Origin: an uncultured Gammaproteobacteria bacterium
GTDB lineage: Bacteria > Patescibacteriota > Microgenomatia > UBA8517 > JACQJR01
Direction of reading: 5' to 3'
NCBI GenBank assembly: GCA_964442455.1
Contig: CAYTZB010000001.1
Coordinates: forward strand, 85,910-149,909
Length of the DNA: 64,000 nucleotides
Part shown: one piece after another, positions 22,470 to 44,878 of the stretch
How positions within the stretch are numbered: the stretch's first letter is position 1
How the letters are laid out: each line of letters begins with the position of its first letter
Position numbers and translations under genes: made by a program
The notes under the pieces: model-generated
Told to the model about the DNA's origin: nothing
Seen by the model: the letters and a program-made list of their open reading frames with translations, nothing else
Databases searched by the model: none

Positions 22470-23585
22470 ATGAAAAAAAATATTGTTTTGAAAACACAGC
22501 AGAGTAAAGTAGATAAAGTACTTTTAATTTTACCTATAGTCTTGACAATAGTTGGTCTTGTCATGATGACCAACGCGTCAGTTGCCCAAGCGCAAAATTT
22601 ATTCGGTGATAAGTTTTTTTTCGCAAAGCAACAGCTTATGTGGGCGGCCCTTGGCCTCGTAGGTTTTTTTATTGCCGCACGAATTCCCTTTTCTCTCTGG
22701 GAAAAAATTGCAACCCCTCTTTTCTGGCTTACTGTTGTTGCGCTAGCGCTCGTTCTTGTGCCAGCAGTTGGTACCATGGCGCTTGGTGCACGACGCTGGA
22801 TAACACTTGGACAGTTTAGCCTCCAGCCGGCAGAGATTGCAAAACTTACCTCTATTCTTTACTTTTCTCGCTTATTCACGAAACAGCAGGTTTTAGGTTG
22901 GACTCATGTGTTTACTTTTCTTTTCGCAGTAACCCTCGCTGGTGGTCTGATAGTTGTAGAACCTGATTTGGGTACCAGTGTTGTCATTGGTGTGACTTCG
23001 TTTGTACTGTTCTTTGTAAGTGGAGTACCGCTAACCCTTTTTATTGCACTTATCCCTCTCCTTGTGGGAGTTACGTTGCTGCTCTCCCTTTCTTCTTCTT
23101 ATCGAAAACAGCGTCTCCTTTCTTTTCTTTCCGGTGTGTTTGATCCGTTCCAGGCTTCCTATCATGTAAAGCAGGTCCTGCTTGCTGTTGCGTCTGGGGG
23201 CTTATTTGGAGTAGGATTAGGGGAGAGCAGACAAAAGTTTCTCTTCTTGCCAGAGGCAGCAACTGATTCAATTTTTGCAGTTATTGCTGAAGAAACAGGG
23301 TTTGTTGGATCGCTCTTTGTTATCTTCCTGTTCGTTGTTCTTGTCGCACGTATATTTGTTGTTGCACAGGGAGTGGGGGTTGACTTTGCGAAGTTGGTAG
23401 CGGTAGGCATTGGGACATGGATTGGAGTGCAGGCACTGGTTAATATTGCGGCAATGACTGCCACCCTTCCCTTAACCGGTATTCCACTCCCCTTTTTCTC
23501 GTATGGTGGGTCGTCTCTTTTTGTAACCCTTTTCGCACTGGGGATTGTGGTAAATATTTCAAAAATGAGGATGCTCAAGCGATGA
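22470..23585 (+). CDS. ftsW: SEDS-family peptidoglycan glycosyltransferase FtsW
   Basis: Roughly 10 TM helices. SEDS motifs QPAEIAKL, EPDLGT, LPEAATDSIFAVIAEETGF and PLPFFSYGGSS are present. Conserved dcw position. Confidence 0.85.
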   Translation: MKKNIVLKTQQSKVDKVLLILPIVLTIVGLVMMTNASVAQAQNLFGDKFFFAKQQLMWAALGLVGFFIAARIPFSLWEKIATPLFWLTVVALALVLVPAVGTMALGARRWITLGQFSLQPAEIAKLTSILYFSRLFTKQQVLGWTHVFTFLFAVTLAGGLIVVEPDLGTSVVIGVTSFVLFFVSGVPLTLFIALIPLLVGVTLLLSLSSSYRKQRLLSFLSGVFDPFQASYHVKQVLLAVASGGLFGVGLGESRQKFLFLPEAATDSIFAVIAEETGFVGSLFVIFLFVVLVARIFVVAQGVGVDFAKLVAVGIGTWIGVQALVNIAAMTATLPLTGIPLPFFSYGGSSLFVTLFALGIVVNISKMRMLKR

Positions 23586-25541: not shown

Positions 25542-26810
25542 ATGGCTAAAGGAAAAGTTATTGCCGGAATAGATATTGGTTCTTCCAAAGTTGCGACCGT
25601 CATAGGCAGTGCAAATCCAGAGGAAGAAGTACTACAAGTTTTGGGAGTGGCGTCTGTTCCTGCTCCGCCTGATGGAATTAAGAAGGGGCAAATTGTTGAT
25701 ATTGAGAAAGCCTCTGGGGCGGTTGTAGCTTCGGTTGAGAAAGCAGAACGGATGGCGGGGTTTGCACTCGATAACGTCGTCGTTGTTATTAATGGTGGAC
25801 ATATTCAGGGTCAAAACTCTCATGGGGTTGTTGCAATATCCTCCCCGGAGGGAGAGATAGAAGGAAGTGATGTTGAGCGGGTCATTGATGCCGCGCGTGC
25901 GATATCTCTTCCAGCTGGTCGCGAAGTTATTCATGTGCTCCCTTGTGAGTTTATTGTAGATGGGGAGAAAGGGATAAAGGATCCGGTGGGAATGAGTGGG
26001 GTGCGGCTTGAGGTAGAAGCGCATATTGTAACCGCGTCAACAACTGCCATTCGCAATTTAACCAAGTGTGTAAGTGAGGTGGGAGCGAGAATTTCCGGTG
26101 TGGTGTTCTCGGGGTTTGCCGCCGCCGCATCGGTGCTTTCTGATACCGAACGGGAACTAGGAGTCGTGTTAATTGACCTTGGAGCGGGGACGACCTCAAT
26201 TGCCGTTTTCACCGATGGCGCACTGGTTCACTCGCGAGTGCTTCCTATTGGTTCAAAAAATATTACCAATGATTTAGCTATAGGACTGCGCACCTCGCTT
26301 GAGAGTGCTGAGAAGATTAAAATTTCTCTCTCCGCAGCAAGTAAAAAAGACAAAGAGGAAGACGAGATAGACGTGTCGGGGTTGGGTGTTGATGGAGGGG
26401 AACGGACTGTGTCAAAAAGGACCCTTTCAGAGGGGATTATACGGCCTAGACTCAACGAAATTTGGAGTATGGTAGGGATGGAGCTCAAGGCCACGGGTCT
26501 TGGAGGGAGAACCCCGGCAGGAGTGGTGATTACCGGAGGGGGAGCGTTAACGGTAGGAGCGGTTGAGTCAGCACGGCGAATCTTAGCCCTTCCTGTTCGG
26601 GTGGGAATTCCCACCGGTATTTCGGGATTGGTTGACGATGTCTCAACGCCCGCATTTGCCGCAACGGTTGGGGCGGTTGCGTGGGCAGCACAAAACGTTG
26701 CCCCTCCTTCGGGTTTTCGTATTGGTCAGTTCACCCGTCCCTTCGAAAGCCTCCCTGTAAAAGGAGTGGTAGGCAAGGTGGTTGAGGTTATAAAAGGATT
26801 GCTGCCATAA
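25542..26810 (+). CDS. ftsA: Cell division protein FtsA
   Basis: Actin-like ATPase motifs GIDIGSSKV and LIDLGAGTTSIAVF, with the characteristic C-terminal region. Confidence 0.9.
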   Translation: MAKGKVIAGIDIGSSKVATVIGSANPEEEVLQVLGVASVPAPPDGIKKGQIVDIEKASGAVVASVEKAERMAGFALDNVVVVINGGHIQGQNSHGVVAISSPEGEIEGSDVERVIDAARAISLPAGREVIHVLPCEFIVDGEKGIKDPVGMSGVRLEVEAHIVTASTTAIRNLTKCVSEVGARISGVVFSGFAAAASVLSDTERELGVVLIDLGAGTTSIAVFTDGALVHSRVLPIGSKNITNDLAIGLRTSLESAEKIKISLSAASKKDKEEDEIDVSGLGVDGGERTVSKRTLSEGIIRPRLNEIWSMVGMELKATGLGGRTPAGVVITGGGALTVGAVESARRILALPVRVGIPTGISGLVDDVSTPAFAATVGAVAWAAQNVAPPSGFRIGQFTRPFESLPVKGVVGKVVEVIKGLLP

Positions 26811-26823
26811 AAGTTCATGGTTG

Positions 26824-26849
26824 AAGCGCGTCAGAAAACGCCGCTTTTC
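26824..26849 (+). terminator. Weak hairpin/T-tract after ftsA
   Basis: AAGCGCGT-CAGAAA-ACGCCGCTT forms an 8-bp stem with one bulge, followed by TTCG. The T-tract is short. Confidence 0.3.
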
Positions 26850-27021
26850 GATTAGCATACGAGGAATCAAAATTTTTTACTCCGTTGTCCCCTTGAGAAC
26901 TGCTAAAAATTTATTCACCTAAAACCTGAGGATATTTCTCGACTATAGGCTCATTTTGTGCTAAAATACGCTTGAAATGGTAGAAAAAGAAATCTTTTTG
27001 GTATAATTAAGGCAAAATTTT

Positions 27022-28794
27022 ATGATCGCTGAACGTCAAGAAAATAAAGCCGTTCAATTGAACGGTCGAGATTGGTTATCCCCTGAGGTTGATGATATTG
27101 CACGTCAAGCAATTAGAGATATGGTGCCGCAGAGATCTGAGGATGGTAATGGTTTGCATTCACAGGAAGAGTTAAATAATGCATTATCAATTTCTTCCTT
27201 TCGTAGAAATGGTCTCCTTGGAATGTTACATATAAAATTTGATGGCGATATTGAGCAAGCTTTAAGATTTGCATATCCTGAGATTTTTAGAAAACCACTT
27301 TTACATCTTGATGAACCTCATTATGGTGATCCTTTTCAAGAAACATGGAGGGAAAGAGAACGCGAAATTGAAGGCAGAATAATATCGACGATGGAAAGGA
27401 GTAGGTTAGGTCATATCTATTTCTACGATAATGAAGTTATTGATAGTGATCAAAAAGCAAGGAAACTTATGAAATTGGGTAGACGGGTCGAGCGCCATGT
27501 AAACCGAAGAAATACCCGTGAACGTCATCACGAAAAAATAGACGTTGACGAATGGCAGGGAAGAGAAAATGAAGATTTTCAAAGAGCAATAGTTCGTTTT
27601 CTAAAACTTGGTGATAGCGTCGCAGGTTTTCTCGGCAGCAACGATACTGAAATTCCACGTTCTATTTTAAATCGAATTGGACAACAAGGAGTATTTTATA
27701 TGATAGGTCGCAGAAATTATCCTTATAACGAACTCGCCGGTTCATTTCCTAACGCAAATAATAGAGGAATCGAGGACGAACTTTTAGCAAGAGCTCTTGA
27801 GTTGGGAGAGTCTTTAATATTGAACAACTACGATCAAGAACAAATAAAAAAAACACTTAACGGTCATAAAATCTATCCAGTTGTCTACAGACCTCCCAAT
27901 CTTCCTGAAGAAATTTCTCGACATTCTTTAAATGCTTTCATTGTGAGCGATCGAGTAAGGGAAATTTTGGAAGAATTTAGGGAAGATTTCCTATGGGCAA
28001 TAGATTCAGCTTTAAAACAAGGTGGATATTTAATTTTTCGAGAAAACGCCAGGCAACAGACAAATATTGAGTACTATGGCCAAGATCTTTGGTCTAGCAG
28101 ATATCAAAGAGTAGGGACGGGAACGAAATCGGCCCAATTAATGATTTTTCGTAAAGTTGCTACAGGTAATTCTATGGTTAGTATTTCTCAAACAGTTTCA
28201 GAAAGTTCTCAATCGACTGAAAATGAAGAGGAATTTGGAGTGTGTACTATTGAACATAAGTGGGAATTTGAAAACGGAGAAGGGGCTGATAAGCAAATTT
28301 ACGCAGCACTTAAGCATGTTATTGAACAAAAACATAGATTAAACGGGGAAGTTACAGAAGCTCAACAGATAGACGAGTTACTAAAAGGAACGTTGAGCGT
28401 AAGTTGGTTTAGGAAAACTGGGCTTTTGCCAATCTTATTTAGTCGGTTTGGCGGAAGTGTTGAAAAAGCAGCGGAGTTTGTTATAGAACATAACCAAGCA
28501 GGAAGAACTCCTCCAACTATTATCCAAAGATCTCCTGAAGGGGCAAAATCCTCTTATAATCTCTACGATCTTGCCAAAGAATTGGGAGTTAGGATAGATG
28601 TTATTAGAAAAACTCTAAATAATGCTGGTATAAAAGGAGTACAGTCACAAAGAAATAAAGGGAATTTTCACCCCCAAACAAGTAGAATGCAATTTTCTTA
28701 TCAGGAGTTTTTAACATTAAGAGATGTATTACGGAGGGATTTAAATGTAGAAAAGGCTACCAAGGAAAGGAGCGATAATGCAGAGAGAATTTGA
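27022..28794 (+). CDS. Hypothetical 590-aa protein with two copies of a ~75-aa module shared with the SNF2-sigma protein, plus a C-terminal HTH-like segment
   Basis: Module copies lie at nt 27073-27287 and 28261-28493 (W..(F/L)..., L(S/N)xSxF(R/Q)(R/K)xGLL...FxGxxxxAxxF). The C-terminus YNLYDLAKELGVRIDVIRKTLNNAGIKG is HTH-like. There is a 17-nt overlap with the next ORF. Confidence 0.7.
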   Translation: MIAERQENKAVQLNGRDWLSPEVDDIARQAIRDMVPQRSEDGNGLHSQEELNNALSISSFRRNGLLGMLHIKFDGDIEQALRFAYPEIFRKPLLHLDEPHYGDPFQETWREREREIEGRIISTMERSRLGHIYFYDNEVIDSDQKARKLMKLGRRVERHVNRRNTRERHHEKIDVDEWQGRENEDFQRAIVRFLKLGDSVAGFLGSNDTEIPRSILNRIGQQGVFYMIGRRNYPYNELAGSFPNANNRGIEDELLARALELGESLILNNYDQEQIKKTLNGHKIYPVVYRPPNLPEEISRHSLNAFIVSDRVREILEEFREDFLWAIDSALKQGGYLIFRENARQQTNIEYYGQDLWSSRYQRVGTGTKSAQLMIFRKVATGNSMVSISQTVSESSQSTENEEEFGVCTIEHKWEFENGEGADKQIYAALKHVIEQKHRLNGEVTEAQQIDELLKGTLSVSWFRKTGLLPILFSRFGGSVEKAAEFVIEHNQAGRTPPTIIQRSPEGAKSSYNLYDLAKELGVRIDVIRKTLNNAGIKGVQSQRNKGNFHPQTSRMQFSYQEFLTLRDVLRRDLNVEKATKERSDNAERI

Positions 28795-31700
28795 ATCTCA
28801 AAGAACGATAGAAATAACACCGGGCAAATCTCCAACTAATGAAGTTATAGAAAGGGTAGGTAGAGAAATAACTCACTGTGATTTGCTCCATATGTGGAAT
28901 TTTGAGGTGGATGGGAGGAACCAGCAAGAGATAGATGAAGAACTTCAGGAAGCAATAAGGCATGTTGTAACGTATACACATACCATCAATGGTGCAGAGT
29001 ATGGAGGCTACCTACCTGATGAGACACTTGAAGAAAAATTGAATTTAGCGTGGTTTCAGAAAGTGGGACTGTTAAAACCAGTGGCGTTGCAGTTTAAGGG
29101 TGAAATTGCAGATGTTGTTCGGTTTGCGTGGCCTGAAGGATTTCACCAGGAAGAGCAAGAGAGAGTCCAGGCGTTTCGTTTGAGACCAGATACAATTGAA
29201 TTTTGGCAGGAATTAAAGAAAGATCTAGAAGGAATACAAACGCCCAAAAATATGGCACTTTCAACTTTTATGATGTATTACGATCCTCGAACAAAAAGGC
29301 AATCTTATCTTGAGGGAGGTAAATATATATACCTTTACGGCCTCTTTTTTCAGGATACATTAGCTGAAGAGTCGATTCATAACCCGGTTGATTATTTAAG
29401 CTCCCGATTCAATCCACCTCGTGATAATCAAGAATTTATTGATCTAGTCAAGGAAACACGTGAGCTTGCGGAGATAAAGCTTCGTAAACCCTATGGAAGT
29501 GTTATGGACATACAAGAAAGGCTTGCAGATCCTAGTTTTTTGGAAGAGTTTGTAATAGATTTGAACGAATATACTGAAGATTTCACTTTTGCTAACTTTA
29601 TGCAAGGCTGGTTGAATTATACAACTCCCAATGGTGACATCATACGGTGGAGTGCTAGAGGAAAGTACAGAGAGCTTCTCAATGATCTTTTAGCACGAAG
29701 GTGGATTGCACAACTGGGCGAAAATGCCGGTTCTGAATCTACACCAAAAAAACCCGCTGAAATATTTTATGAAGCTGCTCCGCAGAACCTCAAACTTTTA
29801 CTTTTGGCGAAATTTCCGAAGGATTTTTCCCATCTTACACTCGAAAGTTTGGAACAGAGTCAGGTAGTGTCAGATGAAGTTCGTGCAATACTTGAAGAGA
29901 CCAGCTTACTGGGAGTTGATAGTCAAGATCGTATTTTAGAGACGCTTGGGAATTATATCTTAGCTAAACATAAAAATAATGAAAGTCTTAATTATCTTGA
30001 TGGTCAACGAATTAAGACGATTTTACTTCAAGTTTCTCAACAAATTCTTCCCGCAGTTATTAGAAGAGCTGCTTCTTCCAAAACGGAGAGCGTTTTAACC
30101 GATAGTCGCATAGTTCCTACAGTTTTGAGCGAAGCAAACTCAGAGAATCAAGAAGTTGCTGACTCTGCCCAAGAGTTGTTGGAATCTCTTAGGGAGGCGT
30201 ACTACTTTCCCCTGCTTAAAAGTTTACTTTACAAACCAACAGCGCTTTTTTGGACTTCATATTTAACTGAGCACCCCGAAGAGGTAACAGTTCCTCCTGC
30301 CATGTTAATTAATTTCCTTGAAAAGCATTTAAAAGGAAGAGTAGAAGAAATTGCTCTTCAAGGCGATCAAAAAGAGGTTCTTGGTTATTTAAGTCAAGAG
30401 GTACTTCCTAATGTCTATCGCCACTTTGCTGAAGTTGCTACCTTTGCCCAGACAATTGCTCACTTTAGAACAAAGGATATTGAAGGGAAACCTCAACATT
30501 TACTTTTTCACCAAGTAGAAGGAATTAAGAAATTGATCGAAGATAAAGGCGGAATTGTATCAGATGAACCTGGTACTGGCAAAACACTTATACTTGCGCT
30601 TTCTGCACTTAATCTGATGGACAGAAGCGGAATTGTTGGACGAGGTACACCTGGGCGCGCTTTAGTAGTTGGGACAAAATCAGTAATAGATAATTGGGAA
30701 AGTGAACTGGATGCACATATACGAACAGACTATATAGATGTTGTAAATGTCAACTTCACCAATCAGAAAGATAGACAAGTGAGTAGAGATGAGTTACAAG
30801 CCCGGTTACGTGAGCTAGAAAGATTACTTCGAAACCCTAGACATCAGAGACAAATGGTATTGGTCAATTACGATTTGTTCAGACACCCTACATTTAAAAA
30901 GATTTTGGGATCTTATCCGTTTGATTCTGTGATAGTTGATGAGGCACATAACGTTAAATCTCGGTTTCTTGAATCAATTAATACCTATGAGAAAAGCGAT
31001 GATTTACGGAGTAGCACGAGTGTAGCTAAAAGAACAAGGGGTCTTTATAGCTACATCAGAACTAGTCCTGACCTTTCTGTATTTTTTGCCACGAGTACAC
31101 CTTATGTTAAAGAGCTTGTCGAACCTCTTATTATGGCGCATTTAGTTAACGAACAACTTGTACCTAGAGAAAGGGTACAACAACTTATGGAAGATACTGT
31201 TGGAACTCACCAAGTATTAAGACAAGTGATGATTCGCAGAAAGAAAGAGGAGATAGCTGACTTACCACCTAAAGAAACGGTAGTAGTTCCGATTGATCTT
31301 ACTTTGCTTTCCGAGGAGGAGAAGCAAGAGTTTAAAGCAATAGCACAAGAGATTATGGAGAACGAAAATTTTGCTGCACGGTTTTATTCAATGCTTTCGC
31401 TTGAAGGTTTGGCCAAATATCCCTGGTTGACAGAAAAGGTTAAAGAGCTTATTTCAGATGGTCGCAAGGTAATTATCTTCACCCCCTTTGTGGTTGGAGA
31501 AAATCGATATACTGCGCCGATTAGTACCGCACGAATAGCAGCAAAATTAATGGGTGCAGGAATTCCAATCAACTCAGTTGCTGTTTTGGACGGAAGTTTA
31601 GATGAAGGAGAACGAATTAGTGTGCAAGGACGTTTTCGTAACCAGCGAGATCCGAAAGTTTTAGTTGGTAATTACATTACCGCAGGAGAGTCAATAACAC

Positions 31701-34700
31701 TCAACTCACCCACCAATAGAGCTACGGAAGTAATTATCTTTGTGGGGCCAAATACAATTACTCGCTATATTCAAGGGGTTGACCGAAGCCACAGAATTGG
31801 GCAAACAGAAAAAGTTACCATTCACATACCATATGTTACTGGAGATTTGCTTGGACGAGGTGAGACCTACGACGAAGCAGTAATTAAACGACTTATGGAT
31901 GAACTGGTAGTTTTTGGAGCTGTCGTCGACGGGCGATTCTTTATGGAGCCAAAAGATATCTATCAATCAATTATTCAAACAGATAGAGCAAAACCGAGAG
32001 GTAGTGTTGAATTTACACGAGAGCATCGACAACGATCAAGAGAGAGGCGACGTGGTCCTTATACACCTCGGTTGCCCGGAGAACCAACTCCAAGAGTAAT
32101 GATAAGTGAAGATGAGGTTATCGATTTTGGATGGATGCAAAATATTCGTGAGGTTGTTACTCGTGAGAGCGAGTCTGAACAGGATATAGTGAGAATGTAT
32201 CTAGAGCAGATAGGACAATACCCACTATTTAATCCGGATAATCCAAATCACGAAAGATTGGCGTTCGATTATTTTAAAAGTGACAGAACCCTTGATGAAT
32301 TAAAGATAGATTCAGAATTTCTTTCAATGATTAATCCGCGAGATAGAGAAGATTTTGGACGTGTTCTGACTGATAGCCAAAGTATTCAAGATTTAATTAT
32401 TAACTGTAATCTCCGCTTGGTAGTTTCAGTAGCTCGTCAACGTCAAGGTCGCGGCTTACCCCTTTTGGATTTAATACAAGAAGGAACATTTGGCTTAATG
32501 CATGCGGTTGAACTCTTCGAACCCGAGCGAGGAAATAAATTTTCAACATACGCAACGTGGTGGATACGCCAAAGTATAAACAGAGCGATCATGAATTCTT
32601 CGCAGACAATCCGATTGCCAGTTCATATGTATGAAAGAATTGGTTTGGCTCGGAGATTTGCAAGAGAATTTGAAGCTACAAATGGTCGCACCCCAAAAGT
32701 GAGTGAGCTGCGCGAGTTAGTTTTAACTCAAACAAAGTTTTCCGAAAGTGAAGTTGACTCTGTAATCGAAACCATTGCTTCAGGAGTTATGCAAATGGGC
32801 ACTTTGGACTTTGAGATTGGGGAAGATGGAGAAGATACATTATATGATGTCGTTGCCGACAAGAGAATGGATGTTGAAGCAACTGTTTTGGAAGAAACAG
32901 AGGATGATGAGCTGAATACTGAGGTAAAGAGGGCTCTGAAAGAGAATTTGGATGAAAGAGAAAGAAGAATAATAGAGTTAAGATTCGGTTTGGGTGAAAC
33001 AAGAGAGAGAACTCTAGAAGAAGTCGGACAAGAATTTGGATTGACACGAGAACGTGTTAGACAGATTCAGGAAAGAAGTTTAGGCAAACTTAGTAGAGAC
33101 AAACAATTACGCGCTCGGTGGGAAGGCGATGCTCCGAGTTTTGTGTATCATACGAGTGCAGAGCAAGCAGCCATCAGGTTAGGATTATTCAATAAGAAGC
33201 AAAGTTATGTCGAGAAAGTTGTCGCAGAGTTACCTCCCCATCTTCAGAGTGTGCTTAATCAACGTATTCTCAAAGCAGCATCTTTGATAAATGGAGATGC
33301 ACAAAATGGGACTTCCGAAGTGGATCAAAGTTATCAATTTACACTTGCACGACTTGCAGTATGGGAGAAGTTAGGGACACTTTATCCAGACGATTTAACT
33401 GACTCACGGCAACGTCGTGAAATATATGGAAAAGATTTTGGGCCATATTTTGACCTATCGCTTATGAAACGGTTGTATGAGCGAAGGGATGGTAGAGTTA
33501 GACTGTTAGATAATCGAGTGTTATCGCACTTTTTTGGATTTGGCGATGGTCAGAAACCCCTCTTAAGTGTAGAGAAAGTTACTCAAGAGCTAGGAATTCC
33601 ACAGGATACAGTTACCGCGGGTCTTCATAAGGGGTTGCAGGTACTTGAAGCTCCACCAGAGAAGAAAACCAGAGCAGAAGAGCTCAGCAGAGAACACAGC
33701 ATTGTTGCACAGGCGTTTCGCAATCAAGAGATTTGGGATCAAATTCCTGATAGAGAAAAAAGCATATTAACACTCTATTTCATACGTGGTGGCGATCAAC
33801 AAGTATTAAAAGAGAATTTTTCGAGAATTTTCGGGATTTCTCTGCCTGAAGTAGATGCACGAATAAACGCTGCAGTAGAGTTAACTGAACGACTTTTAAC
33901 AGAAATTCAGGCTAAACCAGAACGTCAACGAAGGGTAACAAGAGGAGAACTTAGAGATATGGTTGAAGGATTATTGAAAGAGTATCCTTGGTTGAGCAAT
34001 AGCGAAGTAACAGAGCATCTTTCAACAAAACTAAAACAAGATTTAAGCAAAGCTCGTGTTGACCAAGCGAGGAAGAGCTTGGTTGCCCTTGAGAGAGTAG
34101 AGTCACGGCGTGGAAAATTAGATATACTTGACTCAAGAGTCGAAGCATTACTACTCCAAGGATTAAAACCCCAGCAAATTGCTGAGAGTTTGGTTCAATC
34201 AGAAAAAAGAGTTATTGCTTCTATAAGAAGATTGATTAGCACAGGAAATCTTGATACCCAACTTATTCAGTGGAGAAACGATGGCCTTTCAAAGGAAGAA
34301 ATTGCTGAAAGAATAGGAAGTTCAGCTGTTACCATAGGGAGAAGGCTCCGGGTACATGTTGAATCTGGTGCTCTACCTTTCCATCCTCGTGATCCTCGGA
34401 CAGTTGATGATTCTGGAGTTACCGAGCACGTCAGAAACCTAGACGGTATGGTTGAGTCATTGATTCTTCAAGATCCAAAAATAAAAACTAAAGAAATTAT
34501 TGCTGCATTGGAACCTACAGTAGGAAAATACATGGCGGAATTAACAATCCGGAGAGCAAAGAAGCGGCTGGTAGCTGCAGGGAGAATACCTTCTCATTTA
34601 TTTAATCTTACCCATGAGGAAGCAGTAGCTTTAGATCAACAAGTAGAAGAATTGGTAAAAAACGGAAATCTCTCTTATAAAGAGATAGCTGCTGCATTGA

Positions 34701-34951
34701 ATCAGCCAATCAGCAGAATTAGAAATTCTAAAGAAAGACTTGTCAAGACTCGCAGAATTGAGCCTAATCCAAAGTATGTTGACAAAGGAGCTAGTGCAGC
34801 TCTAGAGGAGTACTTATCAACACATCATGGTGATGAAATTAATTTATCAGAGTTTGCGCGCTCTATTGGTATTAGCCGCGAACGCGCAAGCCAACTCTAC
34901 AAGCGGTTAACCAATTCGCAGCTTAAGGAATTAATGACGCGGAGGAAGTAA
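28778..34951 (+). CDS. Giant fusion protein: N-terminal shared module + SNF2-family ATPase + complete primary-type sigma-70 factor + C-terminal array of ~8 HTH-like units
   Basis: SNF2 motifs: SDEPGTGKT (nt ~30563), [11 protein letters not shown] (~30938), [17 protein letters not shown] (~31781). Sigma motifs: region 1.2 [16 protein letters not shown] (~32182), region 2 [49 protein letters not shown], region 4 [13 protein letters not shown]...[17 protein letters not shown]. It is a single uninterrupted ORF. Confidence 0.88.
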   Translation: [2057 protein letters not shown]

Positions 34952-34995
34952 GAAAGTTGCTTTTACGCTTCTTGTAAGCTATACTACACACCGAT

Positions 34996-36351
34996 ATGGC
35001 AATAGAGAAACTTTTTTCAAGAATGAGGCAAGATGCCCTCGATAGCGCTTCTGGCCTTTCTGAAGAGCAAGCACATTTATTGCGTGAGGGAAAGGTAGAA
35101 GATGCTGAACAGAGAATGAACCAGGTGAAAATCGAGATAGCTAAAGCAAAAAAGGTTAATAGGATCGTTGCTGATATGTTGGATATTTTACGTGCAGCAG
35201 GTTTTGAACAACCTCCTGCTGAGTATCTTGAGCAAGTAGTAGCAAGAGAAGTATCAACTCCCGAACCCGTTTATGTAAAAGGGCAAAAATCGGGTCTTTT
35301 TAGTTTCCTCGCTCGATTATTTCCTTCAAAACAAGAACAAATATTTATTCCTGGACGACCCATTTCTCCTCTTAATCTTGTCGAAGAAGTTATGGGATCA
35401 AGACCAGTTGTAGAGGAGACAAGCGAAGAAGTGAAAGAGATTGGAGATATAGATAGAGAAGGAGAGGAAGTGGTAGCGGCAGTACCAACTCCTCCAATTG
35501 AAGCCAAAAGAGTGAGAGGTGATTTTGTGGAGCGCGAAGAAAAATTAGTATACGCAGCTCTTGCTGTTAATCCTAATAGAGATGGATTTCAATTTGAATC
35601 ATGGAGGAGTGTGTGGCGCCAGGCGTTTTCTGATGCCTTCGAGAATATTACCGATGAAAGAGAGCGTGACGATAAAGAAAAAAATTCGCAGATAGCCTCA
35701 TATTCTGCCCGCAGTGCTATTATTGTCAAACTTCAAAGAGTCAAAACTAATGCTCAGGACATTCCCCCTAAAGTAGCGAGTTTTCTTGAATGGGTTAAAA
35801 CTCAACCAGAATACGTTAATCTAAGTGTTGATGATATCTCCCTAATTATACAAAGACAAATAACCTTTGATGAAATTCGTCAAAAGGCAAGCCAAGCAGT
35901 AAATATCTTGCAAATAGAATCGCAACCCACAGAAGAGCAAGCGGTTTCTGGGGAACAAACTGAGTCAGTTCCACAACTGCCCTCGATTCAAGCATCAGAA
36001 AGCAGGGCAACAGAGCCACAAACGCTACAGTTAACAGGGCCAGAGCTTCACTTGCTTGCGCAGAAGTTACTTCAGGCAGCGCCAGCAGTATTAGAAAGAA
36101 CAGGAATAAGAATTCACACTGCAGATAGAGAAGAGATAGGTGGAATTATGGGGCGGCTCGCAAGTTCACCAGAAACTCTTCGTGCAAGCGAAACTTCTCT
36201 TGAAAGTCTCACACAGAAACTTGCTGCATATCTAAAAGACAAAGAAAAAGTATTTATGGAAAATGTCAGCAATGAGGATGCTCAGTATTTGATTACGTTT
36301 GTTGCGGGTATCAGTTCTGAAGACCTATTAAAAGAGTTTTTAAGTAGTTGA
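34996..36351 (+). CDS. Hypothetical acidic 451-aa protein (third gene of the ftsA-ftsZ insert)
   Basis: It has its own TTGCTT-17-TATACT promoter (34957-34985), an N-terminal coiled-coil-like segment and E/Q/S-rich linkers. No family recognised. Confidence 0.6.
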   Translation: MAIEKLFSRMRQDALDSASGLSEEQAHLLREGKVEDAEQRMNQVKIEIAKAKKVNRIVADMLDILRAAGFEQPPAEYLEQVVAREVSTPEPVYVKGQKSGLFSFLARLFPSKQEQIFIPGRPISPLNLVEEVMGSRPVVEETSEEVKEIGDIDREGEEVVAAVPTPPIEAKRVRGDFVEREEKLVYAALAVNPNRDGFQFESWRSVWRQAFSDAFENITDERERDDKEKNSQIASYSARSAIIVKLQRVKTNAQDIPPKVASFLEWVKTQPEYVNLSVDDISLIIQRQITFDEIRQKASQAVNILQIESQPTEEQAVSGEQTESVPQLPSIQASESRATEPQTLQLTGPELHLLAQKLLQAAPAVLERTGIRIHTADREEIGGIMGRLASSPETLRASETSLESLTQKLAAYLKDKEKVFMENVSNEDAQYLITFVAGISSEDLLKEFLSS

Positions 36352-36407
36352 CGCTTCTTTCCTCTCACCCAGAGATTCCCAGATGGCGATACGGCTCACT
36401 CGACCCC

Positions 36408-36436
36408 TTGACAACTCCTGAAAATTTATCCACAAT
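36408..36436 (+). promoter_or_regulatory. Candidate ftsZ promoter
   Basis: TTGACA (36408-36413), a 17-nt spacer, then CACAAT (36431-36436). The predicted ~150-nt 5'UTR contains element E4. Confidence 0.55.
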
Positions 36437-36450
36437 AGGCCACAAGTGAA

Positions 36451-36590
36451 ATTAACCTAATTAACCTAATTGCTCTAATTGATCTAAATTTTGAAGATTT
36501 GTAGTTTAAAAATTGGGATTTATTTAGAAATTAGAATAATTAGAAATAAGCAGAGCTTGTTTCTCGCAAGCTCGAAATTAGAAATTTTTA
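36451..36590. repeat. Imperfect long palindrome of CTAATT / AATTAG phased units (element E4, homolog of E1) plus an internal 7-bp hairpin
   Basis: Left arm: ATTAACCTAATTAACCTAATTGCTCTAATTGATCTAAATT. Right arm: TTTAGAAATTAGAATAATTAGAAAT...GAAATTAGAAATT. The hairpin is GAGCTTG-TTTCTCG-CAAGCTC. Confidence 0.65.
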
Positions 36591-36592
36591 AA

Positions 36593-37720
36593 ATGGCTCT
36601 TGTTAAACCAGATACCACGCGGTTGGCAAAAATTCGAGTAATTGGGGTTGGTGGCGGTGGGGGGAACGCAATTAACTCCATGATCTCCCAAGATAAGATT
36701 TCCGGAGTTGAGTTCATTGCCGTTAATACAGATGCACAAGTCCTTCTCTCAAACCTCGCGTCCACAAAAGTTCAAGTTGGTGAAAAATTGACGCGCGGGT
36801 TGGGTGTTGGGGGAAATCATGAGCTTGGGAAACAAGCAGCGGAGGAATCAAGAGAAAAAATTAAAGAACTGCTTCTTGACTCTGATATGGTATTTATTAC
36901 TGCAGGTATGGGTGGAGGGACTGGAACTGGGGCTGCACCGATTATTGCCGAGGTCGCGCGTGAGGTGGGGGCGTTGACGATTGCTATTGTTACCAAACCT
37001 TTTGCCTTTGAAGGTGCACGGCGCGCAGTAGTAGGAGAAGAGGGAATTGAAGCGCTTAAAGGAAAGGTTGATACGCTCATTATCATTCCCAATCAGCGGT
37101 TGATGGATGTCATTGACCGGAAGGTGACGCTACTTGATGCGTTCCGCCTGGCCGACTCGGTGCTCTCGCAAGGTGTACAAGGAATTTCTGAAATTATCAC
37201 CCAACCGGGACTTATTAACGTTGACTTTGCGGATGTAAAAGCAATTATGACCCAAGCAGGCTCAGCGCTTCTTGGCATTGGTACGGGAGTTGGTGAAGCG
37301 CGGGCACAAATGGCAGCACGGGCAGCAATTTCCTCTCCTCTTCTTGACTTATCAATCGAGGGTGCAAAGGGAGTGTTGTTTAATATCTCGGGTGGCCCGG
37401 ACTTGACTATGGCGGAGGTTGATGAGGCAGCGCGAATTATCGCCGAGCATTCCGATGCAGACGCAAACATTATTTTTGGTGCATCAATTGACCAACGGTT
37501 GTCCGATCAAGTACGTATTACAGTTATTGCGACCGGTTTTGATGAGGCGCGGGCACGACTTGCGCAAATAACCCAAACCGCAGTCAAACCTCAACCAACC
37601 CTTGAGTCGACAGAAGAGACTCGTGGGGAAAACGAGGAGGAAGAAAAGGCAGAAGAACCCAAGGATGATGAGTTTGGAGAACGCTTCGAAATACCAGCGT
37701 TTCTAAGACAGGGCCGCTAG
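36593..37720 (+). CDS. ftsZ: Cell division GTPase FtsZ
   Basis: GVGGGGGNAIN, tubulin signature GGGTGTGAAPIIA, NTDAQ, and the C-terminal conserved peptide FEIPAFLRQGR. ATG 36593 is preferred; the ORF-track TTG 36491 extension runs through the palindromic repeat. Confidence 0.92.
   Translation: MALVKPDTTRLAKIRVIGVGGGGGNAINSMISQDKISGVEFIAVNTDAQVLLSNLASTKVQVGEKLTRGLGVGGNHELGKQAAEESREKIKELLLDSDMVFITAGMGGGTGTGAAPIIAEVAREVGALTIAIVTKPFAFEGARRAVVGEEGIEALKGKVDTLIIIPNQRLMDVIDRKVTLLDAFRLADSVLSQGVQGISEIITQPGLINVDFADVKAIMTQAGSALLGIGTGVGEARAQMAARAAISSPLLDLSIEGAKGVLFNISGGPDLTMAEVDEAARIIAEHSDADANIIFGASIDQRLSDQVRITVIATGFDEARARLAQITQTAVKPQPTLESTEETRGENEEEEKAEEPKDDEFGERFEIPAFLRQGR
37669..37707 (+). repeat. Direct repeat copy 1 (last 39 nt of the ftsZ body before its final 13 nt)
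   Basis: TGAGTTTGGAGAACGCTTCGAAATACCAGCGTTTCTAAG is identical to 40512-40550. Confidence 0.9.
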
Positions 37721-37781
37721 CTTCTAGGATAAAACCTATAATATTTCTTCTACTCTTTAGTTGATATGGTATACTATCGGC

Positions 37782-40514
37782 ATGATTGCAACAACCGAAA
37801 GAGCTATACCAATAGGATTGACTGGCGATATCTCAAAGGATGGAATTCTTTCTCCAGGAACACAAATAGAGCTTGATCGTCTCCAAACTAATGCGGCTGA
37901 TGCTTGCATGGAATATCTAGATAGAATGGCACCAGATGCACCATTTCCTCTAGTTTTTATGGCAACTGGCGTCGGTAAGGGAAAAATTATTCACGAACTG
38001 ATTAAAAGGCAAAAAGCTCGAAAACAAGACTCGAAGATTTTGTTAGTTACAGGTACAAAAATTGTTTTAGTTGATCAGACTGATCAAGCTTTAACTGCTT
38101 ATCAGCAAGAACAAAATGATTTTGATATGGATGAGGATCTTGAACTGGACCAGATGGATTTTGAAAAAGAAGCGTTTGGAGAATACACATTTGATAAGTA
38201 TGGTAATCCGGATGTGGATGTTCAACTGGCAACAATTCAAAGAATTCAAAGGCAGCATAAAGAGGGGAAACTTAATGCGAATGATTTCGATCTACTAATA
38301 GTAGATGAAGTACATAATGTAGGAACCCAGAATAGGTTTAATGCAATTGATAACTTTCAAAGGGTTGTTGGTTTTACTGCTACTCCATATCGCTACACTG
38401 GCCCAATGAAAACACCACAAAGTTATGGATTTGAAATAATTACTTCGCTGTCCCTTCCCGAAGCACAAGAAAGGAAAATTCTTCCGCCTCTTTATGCACT
38501 GCAGATTAATACATCAGAATTACTAAAAGACGAACAAATACCTACCACGAGAACTGGAAAGATCGATTATTCGAAACTCGAGAAAGTTCTCAAGGCACAT
38601 CCGGAATTAAGGGAATTCATTGCGAATAGAGTTGCACCAATTATCAATTTTGAAGGGAGAAGTTATAAAACTGTTGTAACTGTTAACTTTGTGTGGGAAG
38701 CCCTGGAACTTGCCTGGTTATTTAGGGATAAAGGAATTAAGGTTGGTTTAGCAGTTAATCAATATGCCGCAAAGAATATTGATACCAAAGAAATACCAGC
38801 ATTGGACACGATTAGGAGATATAAACTGCCGGAAGGCGATCCAGAAAGCCTCCAGGTTTTAATTTCTCCTTATGTTATTTCGGAAGGTTTTGATGCTCCG
38901 GCAACAGAGATTTTAGTTTGGGCGTCTCCAACTGATTCATATCTGCGATACACGCAATATACTGGACGGCTGGCCAGAAGACATTTTGGTAAAGCTTATG
39001 GACTAGTTGTTGATTGTTTATACCAAACAAGCCAGTATGGTTGGACCTACAACTTTGCAATGTGGATGAAGGGATATGTACAAGAGTTAGAACCTGGACT
39101 TTTATATCTTGGCCCGATGTCAGAAATCAAAGATGTTGAAGTACTTAGACGCATACACGAGATTTCGGATAATATCCATATTCGTGAATTACAAAGGGAA
39201 GGAATACTACCTATTCAAGAAAACGACTTGCCGCTTTCACAAAATTGGATTCGACCTCTTTTCCAGGGAGATTGGCTTAGATTAACTTCTTTAATCGATG
39301 AGATTAAAGAAGAGTATAGAATCACTGGTGAGGAGGTATTTAATCAACTATTCACAACCAGGCTTAGTGGTAATCAACTTGTGCTCGTATGTACAAATAG
39401 AGATATTTTTATTCAACGGCTAATAGACAAAGGTGCTAAACCAAAGGTTGAAAAACCACGAGAGGGAGAGATTCCTTTGACTCAGATTAATCTACCCAAA
39501 CTCTTTGTTGGTAATTTTGAAGATACTTTGAGACCTATGCTTAATTCAATAATGGCGCGTATTAAAAATGAAGATCCAGAGGAATACCAGCGACTCTTTG
39601 CCAAACGAATGCAGGGTAGGGAAATCTATGTTTGCACAAATAAGGATAGACTTATTCAACTTATGGTTGAAGCTGGCGCAAAACTCAGGCCAGGGACTAA
39701 GGTAGCAAAAGAGAAAATGCAAACTAGCGATTTTGCTCTTACAGCAGATAATCTCGGAGAAACTTTTATTACTGGAAGAACAAAGAAGATAAGAGAAGTA
39801 ATAAGGAAAATAAAAGAAAGTTTGCCAGAAGGGGACTCTTTATTTACTTTTAGAGAATACAAGTATGCCGATGTTGAGGTAGTAACTGATTTCGATAGAT
39901 TTGTGCAATTAATGCTACAAACTGGAGTCAAACTCAGACCAAAAAATTTTATTCCAATTCAACCAAATGATATACAATTAAGTAGGGATTTATTAAAAAC
40001 ATTTTTAGGGCAATGGCGTGAAATTTCTACAACAGCGCAGCGAGCTAAAGAAAGACTTGAAAGACAATTCCCCGATGACTGTGATACTCTTTTTGTAGTT
40101 AGGACAACGAGAGTCCAAAATAAACCTCTTTGGATTGATGTATGTACAGACAGGTCTAAATTTATAAAAGCAATGGTAGAGGAAGGAGCTCGATTGAGAG
40201 ATCAGGCAGATATTAACCTTCTACCTATTCAAGAAAATGATATTGTTTTGAGCTTTGAATCTTTCTATTCGATTTCTACTACAAACTGGAGTAAATTAAA
40301 AGTTGTAATTAGACGAATTAAAGATAGGATAAAAGAGGAAATGCCAGAGGAATTCGAAAAGTTATTTGTAAAAAGGAAAAACCGTCGGGGGAAAAGTGAG
40401 GTCTGTACAGATAGAGGTTTATTTATTAAGTGGCTTGAAGAAGAGGGTGTTAAGCTAAGGCAAATTCCGCTAGTTGTGCGACATAGAAGTAGTAACTCTA
40501 ATCGTAACTCTTGA
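37782..40514 (+). CDS. SF2 helicase (ResIII/DEAD-like N-terminal ATPase + helicase-C) with five tandem ~84-aa C-terminal repeats
   Basis: Motif I FMATGVGKGK, motif II LLIVDEVHNV, motif III GFTATP, motif VI QYTGRLARR. TGgTATACT lies 6 nt before ATG 37782. The repeats span nt ~39204-40465. Confidence 0.85.
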   Translation: MIATTERAIPIGLTGDISKDGILSPGTQIELDRLQTNAADACMEYLDRMAPDAPFPLVFMATGVGKGKIIHELIKRQKARKQDSKILLVTGTKIVLVDQTDQALTAYQQEQNDFDMDEDLELDQMDFEKEAFGEYTFDKYGNPDVDVQLATIQRIQRQHKEGKLNANDFDLLIVDEVHNVGTQNRFNAIDNFQRVVGFTATPYRYTGPMKTPQSYGFEIITSLSLPEAQERKILPPLYALQINTSELLKDEQIPTTRTGKIDYSKLEKVLKAHPELREFIANRVAPIINFEGRSYKTVVTVNFVWEALELAWLFRDKGIKVGLAVNQYAAKNIDTKEIPALDTIRRYKLPEGDPESLQVLISPYVISEGFDAPATEILVWASPTDSYLRYTQYTGRLARRHFGKAYGLVVDCLYQTSQYGWTYNFAMWMKGYVQELEPGLLYLGPMSEIKDVEVLRRIHEISDNIHIRELQREGILPIQENDLPLSQNWIRPLFQGDWLRLTSLIDEIKEEYRITGEEVFNQLFTTRLSGNQLVLVCTNRDIFIQRLIDKGAKPKVEKPREGEIPLTQINLPKLFVGNFEDTLRPMLNSIMARIKNEDPEEYQRLFAKRMQGREIYVCTNKDRLIQLMVEAGAKLRPGTKVAKEKMQTSDFALTADNLGETFITGRTKKIREVIRKIKESLPEGDSLFTFREYKYADVEVVTDFDRFVQLMLQTGVKLRPKNFIPIQPNDIQLSRDLLKTFLGQWREISTTAQRAKERLERQFPDDCDTLFVVRTTRVQNKPLWIDVCTDRSKFIKAMVEEGARLRDQADINLLPIQENDIVLSFESFYSISTTNWSKLKVVIRRIKDRIKEEMPEEFEKLFVKRKNRRGKSEVCTDRGLFIKWLEEEGVKLRQIPLVVRHRSSNSNRNS

Positions 40515-44877: not shown

Positions 44878-44878
44878 C

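What the first reader, a model, noticed from the sequence alone, without database searches (positions are those of the whole stretch)
27073..29143. A ~75-85-aa module occurs three times across the two adjacent proteins
Three segments align:
- M1, nt 27073-27287: WLSPEVDDIARQAIRDMV...EELNNALSISSFRRNGLLGMLHIKFDGDIEQALRFAYPEIF
- M2, nt 28261-28493: WEFENGEGADKQIYAALKHVI...IDELLKGTLSVSWFRKTGLLPILFSRFGGSVEKAAEFVIEH
- M3, nt 28894-29143, N-terminus of the SNF2-sigma protein: WNFEVDGRNQQEIDEELQEAIRHVV...LEEKLNLAWFQKVGLLKPVALQFKGEIADVVRFAWPEGF
The shared pattern is W-x-(F/L)...(I/L)xxA(I/L)(R/K)xx(V/I)...L(S/N)xSxF(R/Q)(R/K)xGLLxxxxxxFxGxxxxAxxF. A module shared between neighbouring genes suggests a common interaction or targeting domain (homo- or heterotypic association, or a common ligand) and a common origin for the two genes. 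I could not match it to a known family from memory.
Basis: seen in the sequence. Interest (0 to 1): 0.5.

Follow-up and report, generated by a model that had tools for sequence, protein, structure and literature searches.

The report
DUF4046-like domain shared by sigma-operon proteins
Three old copies of an ~85-residue helical domain, a distant relative of the uncharacterised Pfam family DUF4046, sit in two adjacent genes (a methyltransferase-fold protein and a giant SNF2-helicase/sigma-factor fusion); related proteins repeatedly join this domain to sigma factors, so it may be an unrecognised accessory domain of transcription initiation.

Summary
M1 (A aa 14-98), M2 (A aa 406-494) and M3 (B aa 32-125) are homologous: BLASTP E = 2e-8 to 5e-16, and Smith-Waterman z = 12-19 against shuffles. 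The window holds no fourth copy.

The module has a family. A profile of the three copies retrieved 116 protein clusters, and at least 46 of them pass Pfam DUF4046 (PF13255). hhalign against those repeats gives 99% probability (E = 3e-18). Pfam's own model misses M1-M3.

M2 and M3 share a subtype with conserved Cys/His positions (C, H, H, H), possibly a Zn site. M1 lacks it.

An A-like gene sits directly upstream of a sigma70 gene in all 8 contexts examined. Module presence is facultative, and M2/M3 are not strictly co-dependent (6 of 8 concordant).

The domain is also fused to sigma domains in other architectures. I therefore read it as a docking domain for the transcription-initiation machinery. 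This is an inference, not a demonstration.

The parts
27061..27315 (+). M1: N-terminal DUF4046-like module of protein A (aa 14-98). This subtype lacks the Cys/His positions and the beta-hairpin.
   Evidence: HMM envelope. The full-A AlphaFold2 model shows helices 21-34, 48-54, 57-62, 66-73 and 77-84. M1 copies from different genomes score higher with each other than with M2 or M3 in 2 of 3 M1-M1 pairs.
28237..28503 (+). M2: second module of protein A (aa 406-494). This subtype has C408, H412, H432 and H438 plus a beta-hairpin.
   Evidence: AlphaFold2 pLDDT 90. C/H positions are invariant in the A-like alignment and in 18 subtype members.
28871..29152 (+). M3: N-terminal module of protein B (aa 32-125). 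Same C34/H38/H62/H68 plus hairpin subtype as M2. Acidic (pI 4.65).
27022..28794 (+). Gene A (590 aa): M1, class I methyltransferase-fold domain, M2, C-terminal HTH and a long helix.
27544..28161 (+). Class I (Rossmann) SAM-methyltransferase-fold core of A (about aa 175-380). Motif I is degenerate: LGSND here, LGGxD in the family.
28534..28791 (+). C-terminal HTH-like region and long helix of A (aa 505-590).
   Evidence: Sub-threshold IF2_N hit at aa 514-538. Conserved 'SYTxxDLAxELG' block. HTH_17 hit in one homologue.
28778..28794 (+). 17-nt overlap between the end of A and the start of B, with GGAG at 28769-28772 five nt upstream of the B ATG. This layout suggests translational coupling.
   Evidence: Sequence. 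The same 17-nt overlap occurs in L005 and L007. A-to-sigma gene spacing is -17 to +17 nt in all 8 contexts.
28778..34951 (+). Gene B (2057 aa): M3, a 430-aa family-specific region, an SNF2 ATPase, sigma70 regions 1.2-4, and a ~600-aa tail with extra HTH units.
   Evidence: Pfam and NCBIfam. B-like alignment.
30497..31897 (+). SNF2-family ATPase of B (aa ~574-1040).
   Evidence: PF00176, PF00271. PDB sequence hits to HELLS, DDM1 and ISWI.
32183..33106 (+). Primary-like sigma70 regions 1.2, 2, 3 and 4 of B (aa 1136-1443).
   Evidence: Pfam. RpoD/SigA-family NCBIfam hits below the equivalog cut-offs.
34996..36351 (+). Gene C (451 aa), a conserved third gene of the cluster. It carries no module.
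   Evidence: C-like genes follow the sigma gene in L005, L007, L013 and L015. The C-terminal domain of C is fused to the N-terminus of the sigma protein in L017.

Best explanation
M1, M2 and M3 are three anciently diverged copies of one small, independently folding domain of about 85 aa: a helix, an optional beta-hairpin, and four short helices built around the motif LSxSWF(R/Q)KxGLLxxLxxxFxGxxxxAxxFAYP. The domain is a divergent member of the DUF4046 (PF13255) superfamily.

In this lineage it is an accessory, facultative domain of a transcription-initiation gene cluster. M3 caps the N-terminus of a primary-like sigma factor. That is the position of region 1.1, and in this window it is separated from region 1.2 by an inserted SNF2 motor. 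M1 and M2 flank the methyltransferase-fold core of the protein encoded immediately upstream, which is probably translationally coupled to the sigma gene.

The most likely role is a protein-docking module. It would bring A and the sigma/SNF2 protein to the same partner or place, namely the RNA polymerase / sigma initiation complex. It is less likely to be an obligate M2-M3 pairing device.

Shown: homology, fold prediction, domain architecture, gene linkage, repeated fusion to sigma domains.
Inferred: the docking function, its target, and Zn binding by the C/H/H/H positions of the M2/M3 subtype.
For: Homology of the three copies.

Superfamily link:
- A 3-sequence profile retrieves 116 clusters out of 1.84 billion representatives, 45 of them at E <= 1e-10.
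- PF13255 is significant in 42 of 94 of these, plus P0006, P0009, P0032 and P0034.
- An HMM of 133 repeats from proteins outside the A/B families scores M1, M2 and M3 at 50, 30 and 36 bits.
- hhalign gives 99% probability, E = 3.4e-18.

Confident compact fold: pLDDT 90.

Three orthologous lines (M1s, M2s, M3s), with no within-genome excess similarity and no DNA similarity. This points to an old duplication, with each copy conserved separately.

Association with sigma:
- An A-like gene lies directly upstream of a sigma70-domain gene in 8 of 8 contexts.
- The module sits at the N-terminus of sigma proteins both with SNF2 (P0003, P0010, P0013, P0016, P0026) and without it (P0028, P0063).
- DUF4046 repeats are fused to an ECF-like sigma region 2 in P0011 and P0034.

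Against obligate M2-M3 pairing, and so in favour of a common target: the discordant loci L019 and L017.
Against: No direct evidence for any binding partner.

The sigma association rests on a few lineages that may be related to each other. Most DUF4046 proteins are plain tandem-repeat proteins with no sigma domain, for example the gut-metagenome arrays next to recG.

B-like proteins can lack the module altogether (L015, L016, L017), so it is not essential for the sigma function.
Confidence: 0.4

Rival explanations
1. Homotypic adaptor. The same domain in adjacent genes mediates direct module-module association (M2, and perhaps M1, of A with M3 of B). This would tether the methyltransferase-fold protein to the sigma/SNF2 protein, as effector-associated adaptor domains do in other bacterial operons.
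For: - Same domain in neighbouring, overlapping genes.
- M2 and M3 share one subtype, with C/H/H/H positions and a hairpin, and score nearly as high with each other as within their own groups.
- 6 of 8 loci are concordant for full M2 and M3: four have both, two have neither.
- Tandem DUF4046 arrays imply repeat-repeat packing.
Against: - L019 has a truncated M2 but a complete M3. L017 has a complete M2 but a sigma partner without M3.
- No within-genome co-evolution signal: window M2 scores 129 against its own M3, and 138 and 110 against foreign M3s.
- All A-likes that are intact over that region keep at least the C-terminal half of a module even when B has none, so M3 cannot be their only partner.
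Confidence: 0.22
2. Nucleic-acid-binding module. The domain is a small HTH-like DNA (or RNA) binder. Several copies, within one protein or across A and B, would read or clamp an extended nucleic-acid site near promoters.
For: - Tandem DUF4046 repeats are on average basic: mean net charge +2, median pI 8.7.
- Repeats in P0012 carry a 'GRKPTxEDL' motif with a sub-threshold hit to the homing-endonuclease-associated repeat PF18780.
- Host proteins are rich in other HTHs.
Against: - The three window modules are acidic (pI 4.97, 5.9, 4.65; net charge -4, -2, -8), and A/B-type modules are acidic on average.
- The conserved residues are mostly hydrophobic core positions. The last helix (xxAxxFAYP) does not look like a recognition helix (read from the alignments).
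- No HTH Pfam family hits the modules.
Confidence: 0.2
3. Analogue of region 1.1. M3 is the lineage's replacement for sigma region 1.1: an acidic N-terminal autoinhibitory or DNA-mimic domain occupying the RNAP channel. The modules of A would compete for the same site, making A an anti- or co-sigma regulator.
For: - In P0028 and P0063 the module lies at the extreme N-terminus, followed by a linker and then region 1.2. That is exactly the region 1.1 position.
- M3 is strongly acidic: pI 4.65, net charge -8.
- It is small and helical.
- No Sigma70_r1_1 domain is detected in B.
Against: - No sequence match to PF03979.
- In B, about 1000 residues including an SNF2 motor separate M3 from region 1.2.
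- Some B-likes lack the module.
- The same domain forms basic tandem arrays in unrelated proteins.
Confidence: 0.12
4. Chance or compositional similarity: there is no real shared domain.
For: None found.
Against: z = 12-19 against shuffles. BLASTP E down to 5e-16. 116 database relatives. Confident common fold.
Confidence: 0.01

Closest known systems
Pfam PF13255 (DUF4046), a domain/repeat of unknown function
   Same: Homologous at profile level (hhalign 99%, E = 3e-18). Same core motif: helix, then L(S/N)xxxFxxxGLxGMLxxxFxxSxxxAxxxAYPxxF. The unit length is similar: tandem repeats recur about every 75 aa and the Pfam model has 90 positions. Where both match, Pfam profile positions and module HMM positions line up.
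   Different: - The Pfam model does not detect M1-M3, even at E <= 1.
- The window copies are single, separated domains rather than 3-10 tandem repeats.
- The M2/M3 subtype adds an N-terminal C-x3-H strand, two further His and a beta-hairpin (HxIxGxxYGG). Canonical DUF4046 has Trp or hydrophobic residues at those positions.
- The host architectures are new: sigma70, SNF2-sigma70, methyltransferase fold, Zn-ribbon.
- No paper in the searchable library mentions DUF4046 or PF13255.
Sigma-70 region 1.1 (PF03979)
   Same: Position at the extreme N-terminus of a primary-like sigma factor, ahead of region 1.2 (P0028, P0063). Small, helical and acidic.
Homing-endonuclease-associated repeat (PF18780, HNH_repeat)
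   Same: My recollection of the family is a short helical repeat starting with Trp and ending in an 'FGSWxxAxxxAG'-like helix pair. That is a lead, not a test. One relative (P0012) has a sub-threshold hit: 25.4 bits against a cut-off of 26.
   Different: None of the 50 aligned modules hits PF18780 at E <= 1. The P0012 match covers only about 15 profile positions.
RapA/HepA, the RNAP-associated SNF2 ATPase (context for protein B, not for the module)
   Same: A bacterial SNF2 ATPase functionally tied to RNA polymerase (PMC8501970, listed). B physically joins an SNF2 motor to sigma70.
   Different: The SNF2 part of B is not specifically RapA-like by sequence; its best PDB hits are HELLS, DDM1 and ISWI. 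RapA is not fused to sigma and has no DUF4046-like domain.

Membership tests
Pfam DUF4046 (PF13255), family in the strict sense | Match to the PF13255 HMM at or above the gathering score (22.8 bits) | tested here: not met
   No PF13255 hit for A or B at E <= 1. Only 5 of 50 aligned modules give weak hits (best E = 0.0025), and none of them is a window copy.
DUF4046 superfamily (profile-level homology) | Significant reciprocal profile similarity to repeats of proteins that do pass PF13255 | tested here: met
   The window profile retrieves PF13255-positive proteins at E down to 1e-30. An HMM of their repeats scores M1, M2 and M3 at 50, 30 and 36 bits. hhalign 99%, E = 3.4e-18. Caveat: the repeat set was itself collected with the window profile.
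DUF4046 superfamily | Head-to-tail tandem arrangement with a period of about 75 aa | tested here: not met
   M1 and M2 are about 310 residues apart with a methyltransferase fold between them. M3 is single.
Sigma-70 region 1.1 | Sequence match to PF03979 or fold match to solved region 1.1 structures | tested here: not met
Sigma-70 region 1.1 | Acidic domain at the N-terminus, directly upstream of region 1.2 | tested here: inconclusive
   Met in P0028 and P0063, and M3 has pI 4.65. In window B, however, about 1000 residues including SNF2 intervene.
HTH DNA-binding domains (TetR_N-like) | Significant fold or sequence match to an HTH family | tested here: inconclusive
Homing-endonuclease-associated repeat (PF18780) | Match to the PF18780 HMM | tested here: not met
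   Absent from the hits of 50 modules at E <= 1. There is only a sub-threshold partial hit in P0012.
Homotypic adaptor domains shared between operon partners | Correlated presence and absence of the domain in both partners across genomes | tested here: inconclusive
   6 of 8 loci are concordant. L019 (M2 truncated, M3 present) and L017 (M2 full, M3 absent) are discordant. The sample is small.
Homotypic adaptor domains shared between operon partners | Physical module-module interaction | not testable with these tools
   No multimer prediction, and neither model coordinates nor PAE were available.
Zinc-binding domain (for the M2/M3 subtype) | Four conserved Cys/His ligands clustered in space, and bound metal | tested here: inconclusive
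   C-x3-H...H...H is conserved in 17 of 18 subtype members; one has Tyr at the fourth position. Spatial clustering and metal content could not be checked because no coordinates were available.
Class I SAM-dependent methyltransferase (central domain of A) | Rossmann-like methyltransferase fold | tested here: met
Class I SAM-dependent methyltransferase (central domain of A) | Intact SAM-binding motif I (GxGxG) and an acidic residue at the end of beta-2 | tested here: not met
   The alignment shows LGSND in the window and LGGxD in the family in place of GxGxG. There is no conserved D/E after the 'YVVTP' strand. No Pfam methyltransferase hit for window A itself. Activity is therefore doubtful.

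The most novel reading that the evidence does not exclude
The M2/M3-type module is a Cys-His3 zinc-binding domain that replaces sigma region 1.1 in an unsampled bacterial lineage. A (a pseudo-methyltransferase carrying two copies), B (sigma fused to an SNF2 motor) and C would then form a previously undescribed three-protein transcription-initiation system. In this system the shared module docks A and sigma competitively or cooperatively on RNA polymerase. By extension, the many DUF4046 tandem-repeat proteins of Firmicutes-like gut bacteria would be RNAP- or sigma-binding regulators.
Probability: 0.12. Interest if true: 0.8.

Novelty: new variant of a known kind. Interest (0 to 1): 0.5.

Why it matters
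DUF4046 is a catalogued domain with no function, no structure, and no mention in the searchable literature.

This locus offers a first functional handle. A divergent subtype of the domain is wired into sigma factors in several architectures:
- at the N-terminus of a primary-like sigma, with or without an SNF2 motor;
- in arrays fused to an ECF-like sigma region 2;
- in a methyltransferase-fold protein that is always encoded next to the sigma gene.

If the domain docks on the transcription machinery, two things would follow. It would define a new class of sigma accessory domain, possibly a functional replacement of region 1.1. It would also give a testable hypothesis for the DUF4046 repeat proteins found here, 46 of the 116 retrieved clusters.

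The host protein is unusual in itself: a 2057-aa SNF2-sigma70 fusion lying between ftsA and ftsZ.

Tried and rejected
Searches that found nothing or could not run:
- Word-indexed homologue search with the 3-module and the 50-module alignments. The index is too insensitive for this short domain; the exhaustive representative search was needed.
- Degenerate-pattern scans for A-like and B-like genes in GTDB species genomes (2 scans), JGI metagenome contigs and IMG/VR. The organism's taxon is therefore undetermined. Relatives came only from Logan, ENA, JGI and NCBI contigs retrieved through exact-protein look-ups.
- The Foldseek afdb50 library was unavailable.
- BFVD viral structures: no match.
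- PDB sequence-profile search: nothing significant. The best hit, an AR9 phage RNAP beta subunit at E = 0.72, is a chance-level curiosity.

Ideas tested and dropped:
- M2/M3 strict co-occurrence looked promising at 6 of 6 loci. Two further loci, L019 and L017, broke it.
- Recent duplication or gene conversion between M2 and M3: no DNA similarity and no within-genome excess score.
- Anti-phage defence reading. PADLOC hits on B cover only the generic sigma (MzaA) and SNF2 (ZorD, DpdE) parts, A and C have no hits, and the cluster sits in a dcw operon.
- Low-complexity or coiled-coil artefact: rejected by the shuffles.


Full report
**Setting**

The window is a bacterial cell-division and cell-wall (dcw) cluster: MraW, a PBP transpeptidase, Mur ligases, MurB, MurA-like, MraY, MurD, FtsW, MurG, FtsQ and FtsA.

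Three genes lie between ftsA (25542-26810) and ftsZ (36491-37720):
- A (27022-28794, 590 aa).
- B (28778-34951, 2057 aa).
- C (34996-36351, 451 aa).

Pfam finds SNF2 and Helicase_C domains plus sigma70 regions 1.2, 2, 3 and 4 in B. It finds nothing significant in A or C.

**Check of the observation**

The three quoted segments are present.

BLASTP of the isolated segments gives E = 1.9e-8 (M1-M2), 3.4e-11 (M1-M3) and 4.8e-16 (M2-M3). In a comparison of full A with full B, the only significant hits are the modules.

Smith-Waterman scores of 77, 93 and 115 stand against shuffle means of 23-25 (z = 12-19). None of 2000 shuffles reaches the observed value.

An HMM of the three copies finds no fourth copy in the six-frame translation of the window. 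There is no DNA-level similarity between the copies.

**What the module is**

A profile of the three copies, run exhaustively against 1.84 billion cluster representatives, gave 116 hits at E <= 1e-3 and 45 at E <= 1e-10.

Many hits are proteins made of 3-10 head-to-tail repeats with a period of about 75 residues. Their consensus is W..E.A..A..WLIEEKLKWSDEEIK..LS...F..NGL.GML...FN.SPY.AI..AYP.KFK.WEF.

Pfam DUF4046 (PF13255) is significant in 42 of 94 of these hits and in four more. Where both models match, the Pfam profile positions and my HMM positions coincide.

An HMM built from 133 repeats of proteins outside the A and B families scores M1, M2 and M3 at 50, 30 and 36 bits. hhalign between the window profile and those repeats gives 99% probability, E = 3.4e-18.

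The Pfam model itself does not detect the window copies. The module is therefore a divergent member of the DUF4046 superfamily, not a member of the Pfam family as currently defined. No paper in the searchable library mentions DUF4046 or PF13255.

**Structure**

With a 50-sequence alignment, AlphaFold2 models M2 at pLDDT 90 and pTM 0.80. The fold is a short N-terminal strand, a helix, a beta-hairpin and four short helices. M1 in the full-length A model has the same helices but no hairpin.

**Subtypes and history**

M2 and M3 share extra features with all B-like N-termini and with a set of small proteins:
- a C-x3-H-x-W strand;
- a His in helix 1 (AIRH);
- a His at the start of the HxIxGxxYGG hairpin.

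The C/H/H/H pattern is present in 17 of 18 members, and the positions are invariant in the A-like and B-like alignments. I infer a Zn site from this.

M1-type copies and canonical DUF4046 repeats lack these residues.

A score matrix over four genomes shows an orthologous M2 group and an orthologous M3 group, a weaker M1 group, and M2 closer to M3 than to M1. There is no excess similarity within a genome. The duplication is therefore old and each copy has been conserved separately.

**The rest of A and B**

Motif I is degenerate (LGSND in the window, LGGxD in the family), and no conserved acidic residue follows beta-2. A may therefore be a pseudo-enzyme.

A ends with a conserved HTH-like block.

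**Conservation of the gene cluster**

An A-like gene lies immediately upstream of a sigma70-domain gene in all eight contexts I could read. The spacing ranges from a 17-nt overlap to a 17-nt gap.

| Context | Sigma-gene product | Full M2 (C/H/H/H) | M3 |
|---|---|---|---|
| Window | 2057-aa SNF2-sigma | yes | yes |
| L004 | 1900-aa SNF2-sigma | yes | yes |
| L005 | 486-aa module-plus-sigma, no SNF2 | yes | yes |
| L007 | 1892-aa SNF2-sigma | yes | yes |
| L015 | 1610-aa SNF2-sigma | no | no |
| L016 | B-like, cut by the contig end | no | no |
| L019 | B-like, cut by the contig end | no | yes |
| L017 | 1385 aa: C-like domain, sigma, HTH repeats | yes | no |

In the window the overlap is 17 nt, with GGAG five nt before the B start codon. 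The same 17-nt overlap recurs in L005 and L007.

C-like genes follow the sigma gene in L005, L007, L013 and L015.

**Test of the interaction idea**

If M2 and M3 were obligate partners, they should be gained and lost together. After six loci the pattern was perfect. L019 and L017 then broke it, as the table shows.

All A-likes that are intact over that region keep at least the C-terminal half of a module. M3 therefore cannot be the only partner of the modules of A. A strict heterotypic pairing is weakened, though not excluded.

**Association with sigma factors**

The domain is attached to sigma domains in several other ways:
- Module plus sigma70 without SNF2 (P0028, P0063).
- DUF4046 repeats flanking an ECF-like sigma region 2 (P0011, P0034; 'DLVQVGRAGVWEAV'-type region 2.2).

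In the minimal forms the module sits where region 1.1 sits in other primary sigma factors. M3 is acidic (pI 4.65). There is no sequence or fold evidence of homology to region 1.1.

**Interpretation**

- Best reading (confidence about 0.4): an accessory docking domain that places its hosts on a common partner in the transcription-initiation complex.
- Rival, direct homotypic A-B adaptor: about 0.22.
- Rival, region 1.1 analogue with A as competitor: about 0.12.

All of these are inferences. What is shown is homology, the predicted fold, the domain architectures, the gene linkage and the repeated fusion to sigma.

**Origin of the sequence**

Identical copies of A occur only in NCBI and Logan assemblies, in runs SRR12113420, SRR12113422 and SRR12113383. 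A paper assigns the neighbouring run SRR12113421 to groundwater from Modesto, California (bioRxiv 10.1101/2024.02.19.580942). This is a lead, not an identification.

No A-like or B-like gene was found in GTDB species genomes, JGI contigs or IMG/VR. The taxon was not determined.

**Verdict**

This is a real, old, conserved domain triplication. It is a new variant of the known but uncharacterised DUF4046 family, found in new sigma-linked architectures. Interest is moderate for the module itself. The SNF2-sigma fusion that hosts it is the more striking object.

Noticed in passing
window 28778-34951 (+): Protein B is a 2057-aa fusion of an SNF2-family ATPase with a primary-like sigma70 (regions 1.2-4). 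It also has a ~600-aa C-terminal tail holding further sigma4/HTH-like units (Sigma70_r4_2, HTH_24, HTH_3 and GerE partial hits). Relatives exist with SNF2 (1498-1900 aa) and without it (467-486 aa). I found no description of such a fusion in the paper library.
   Followed up: partly
window 26811-36490: The A-B-C trio sits between ftsA and ftsZ inside an otherwise canonical dcw cluster. ftsA is also directly upstream of A on contig L002.
   Followed up: partly
window 34996-36351 (+); L017 11656-15813: Protein C (no Pfam hit) is a conserved downstream partner of the sigma gene in L005, L007, L013 and L015. In L017 its C-terminal domain (aligning to window C aa 345-442) is fused to the N-terminus of the sigma protein, in the place of M3. 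This Rosetta-stone-type fusion hints that C binds sigma.
   Followed up: partly
proteins P0020, P0022, P0024, P0039, P0075: These small proteins (146-228 aa) consist of an M3-type module followed by a conserved Cys/His motif, CxHHWxIExPxGPxSxGxCxxCGxxxxFRNSxxD, which looks like a zinc ribbon. No Pfam match at E <= 0.001 for the two scanned, P0022 and P0024. The one context obtained was too short to be informative.
   Followed up: partly
proteins P0011 (L011 393-4517) and P0034: These large proteins have DUF4046 repeats on both sides of an ECF-like sigma region 2. P0011 comes from run SRR12113383, a run that also carries the window's protein A.
   Followed up: partly
L008 288-3194, L009 280-3186: In human-gut metagenome contigs, three consecutive genes (119, 408 and 331 aa) all consist of DUF4046 repeats. 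They lie upstream of recG and near a sortase gene.
   Followed up: no
window 37761-40514 (+): A 917-aa ResIII/DEAD helicase lies directly after ftsZ. It has PADLOC hits to PbeA and to type IV methyl-directed restriction enzymes.
   Followed up: no
window 22470-23585 and 44858-45901 (+): Two FtsW/RodA/SpoVE-family paralogues occur within 22 kb of each other. The second overlaps the end of the IleRS gene.
   Followed up: no
window 981-3002 (+): A 673-aa protein with a DUF4012 domain lies at the start of the window, upstream of a class II aminoacyl-tRNA synthetase.
   Followed up: no
proteins P0004, P0007, P0023, P0099: Another repeat subtype carries four His per unit (HLWHPWDF ... AIRHLxE.HEGW) at the positions where the M2/M3 subtype has C/H/H/H and canonical DUF4046 has Trp or hydrophobic residues. 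This suggests a metal site that is gained or lost within the superfamily.
   Followed up: no
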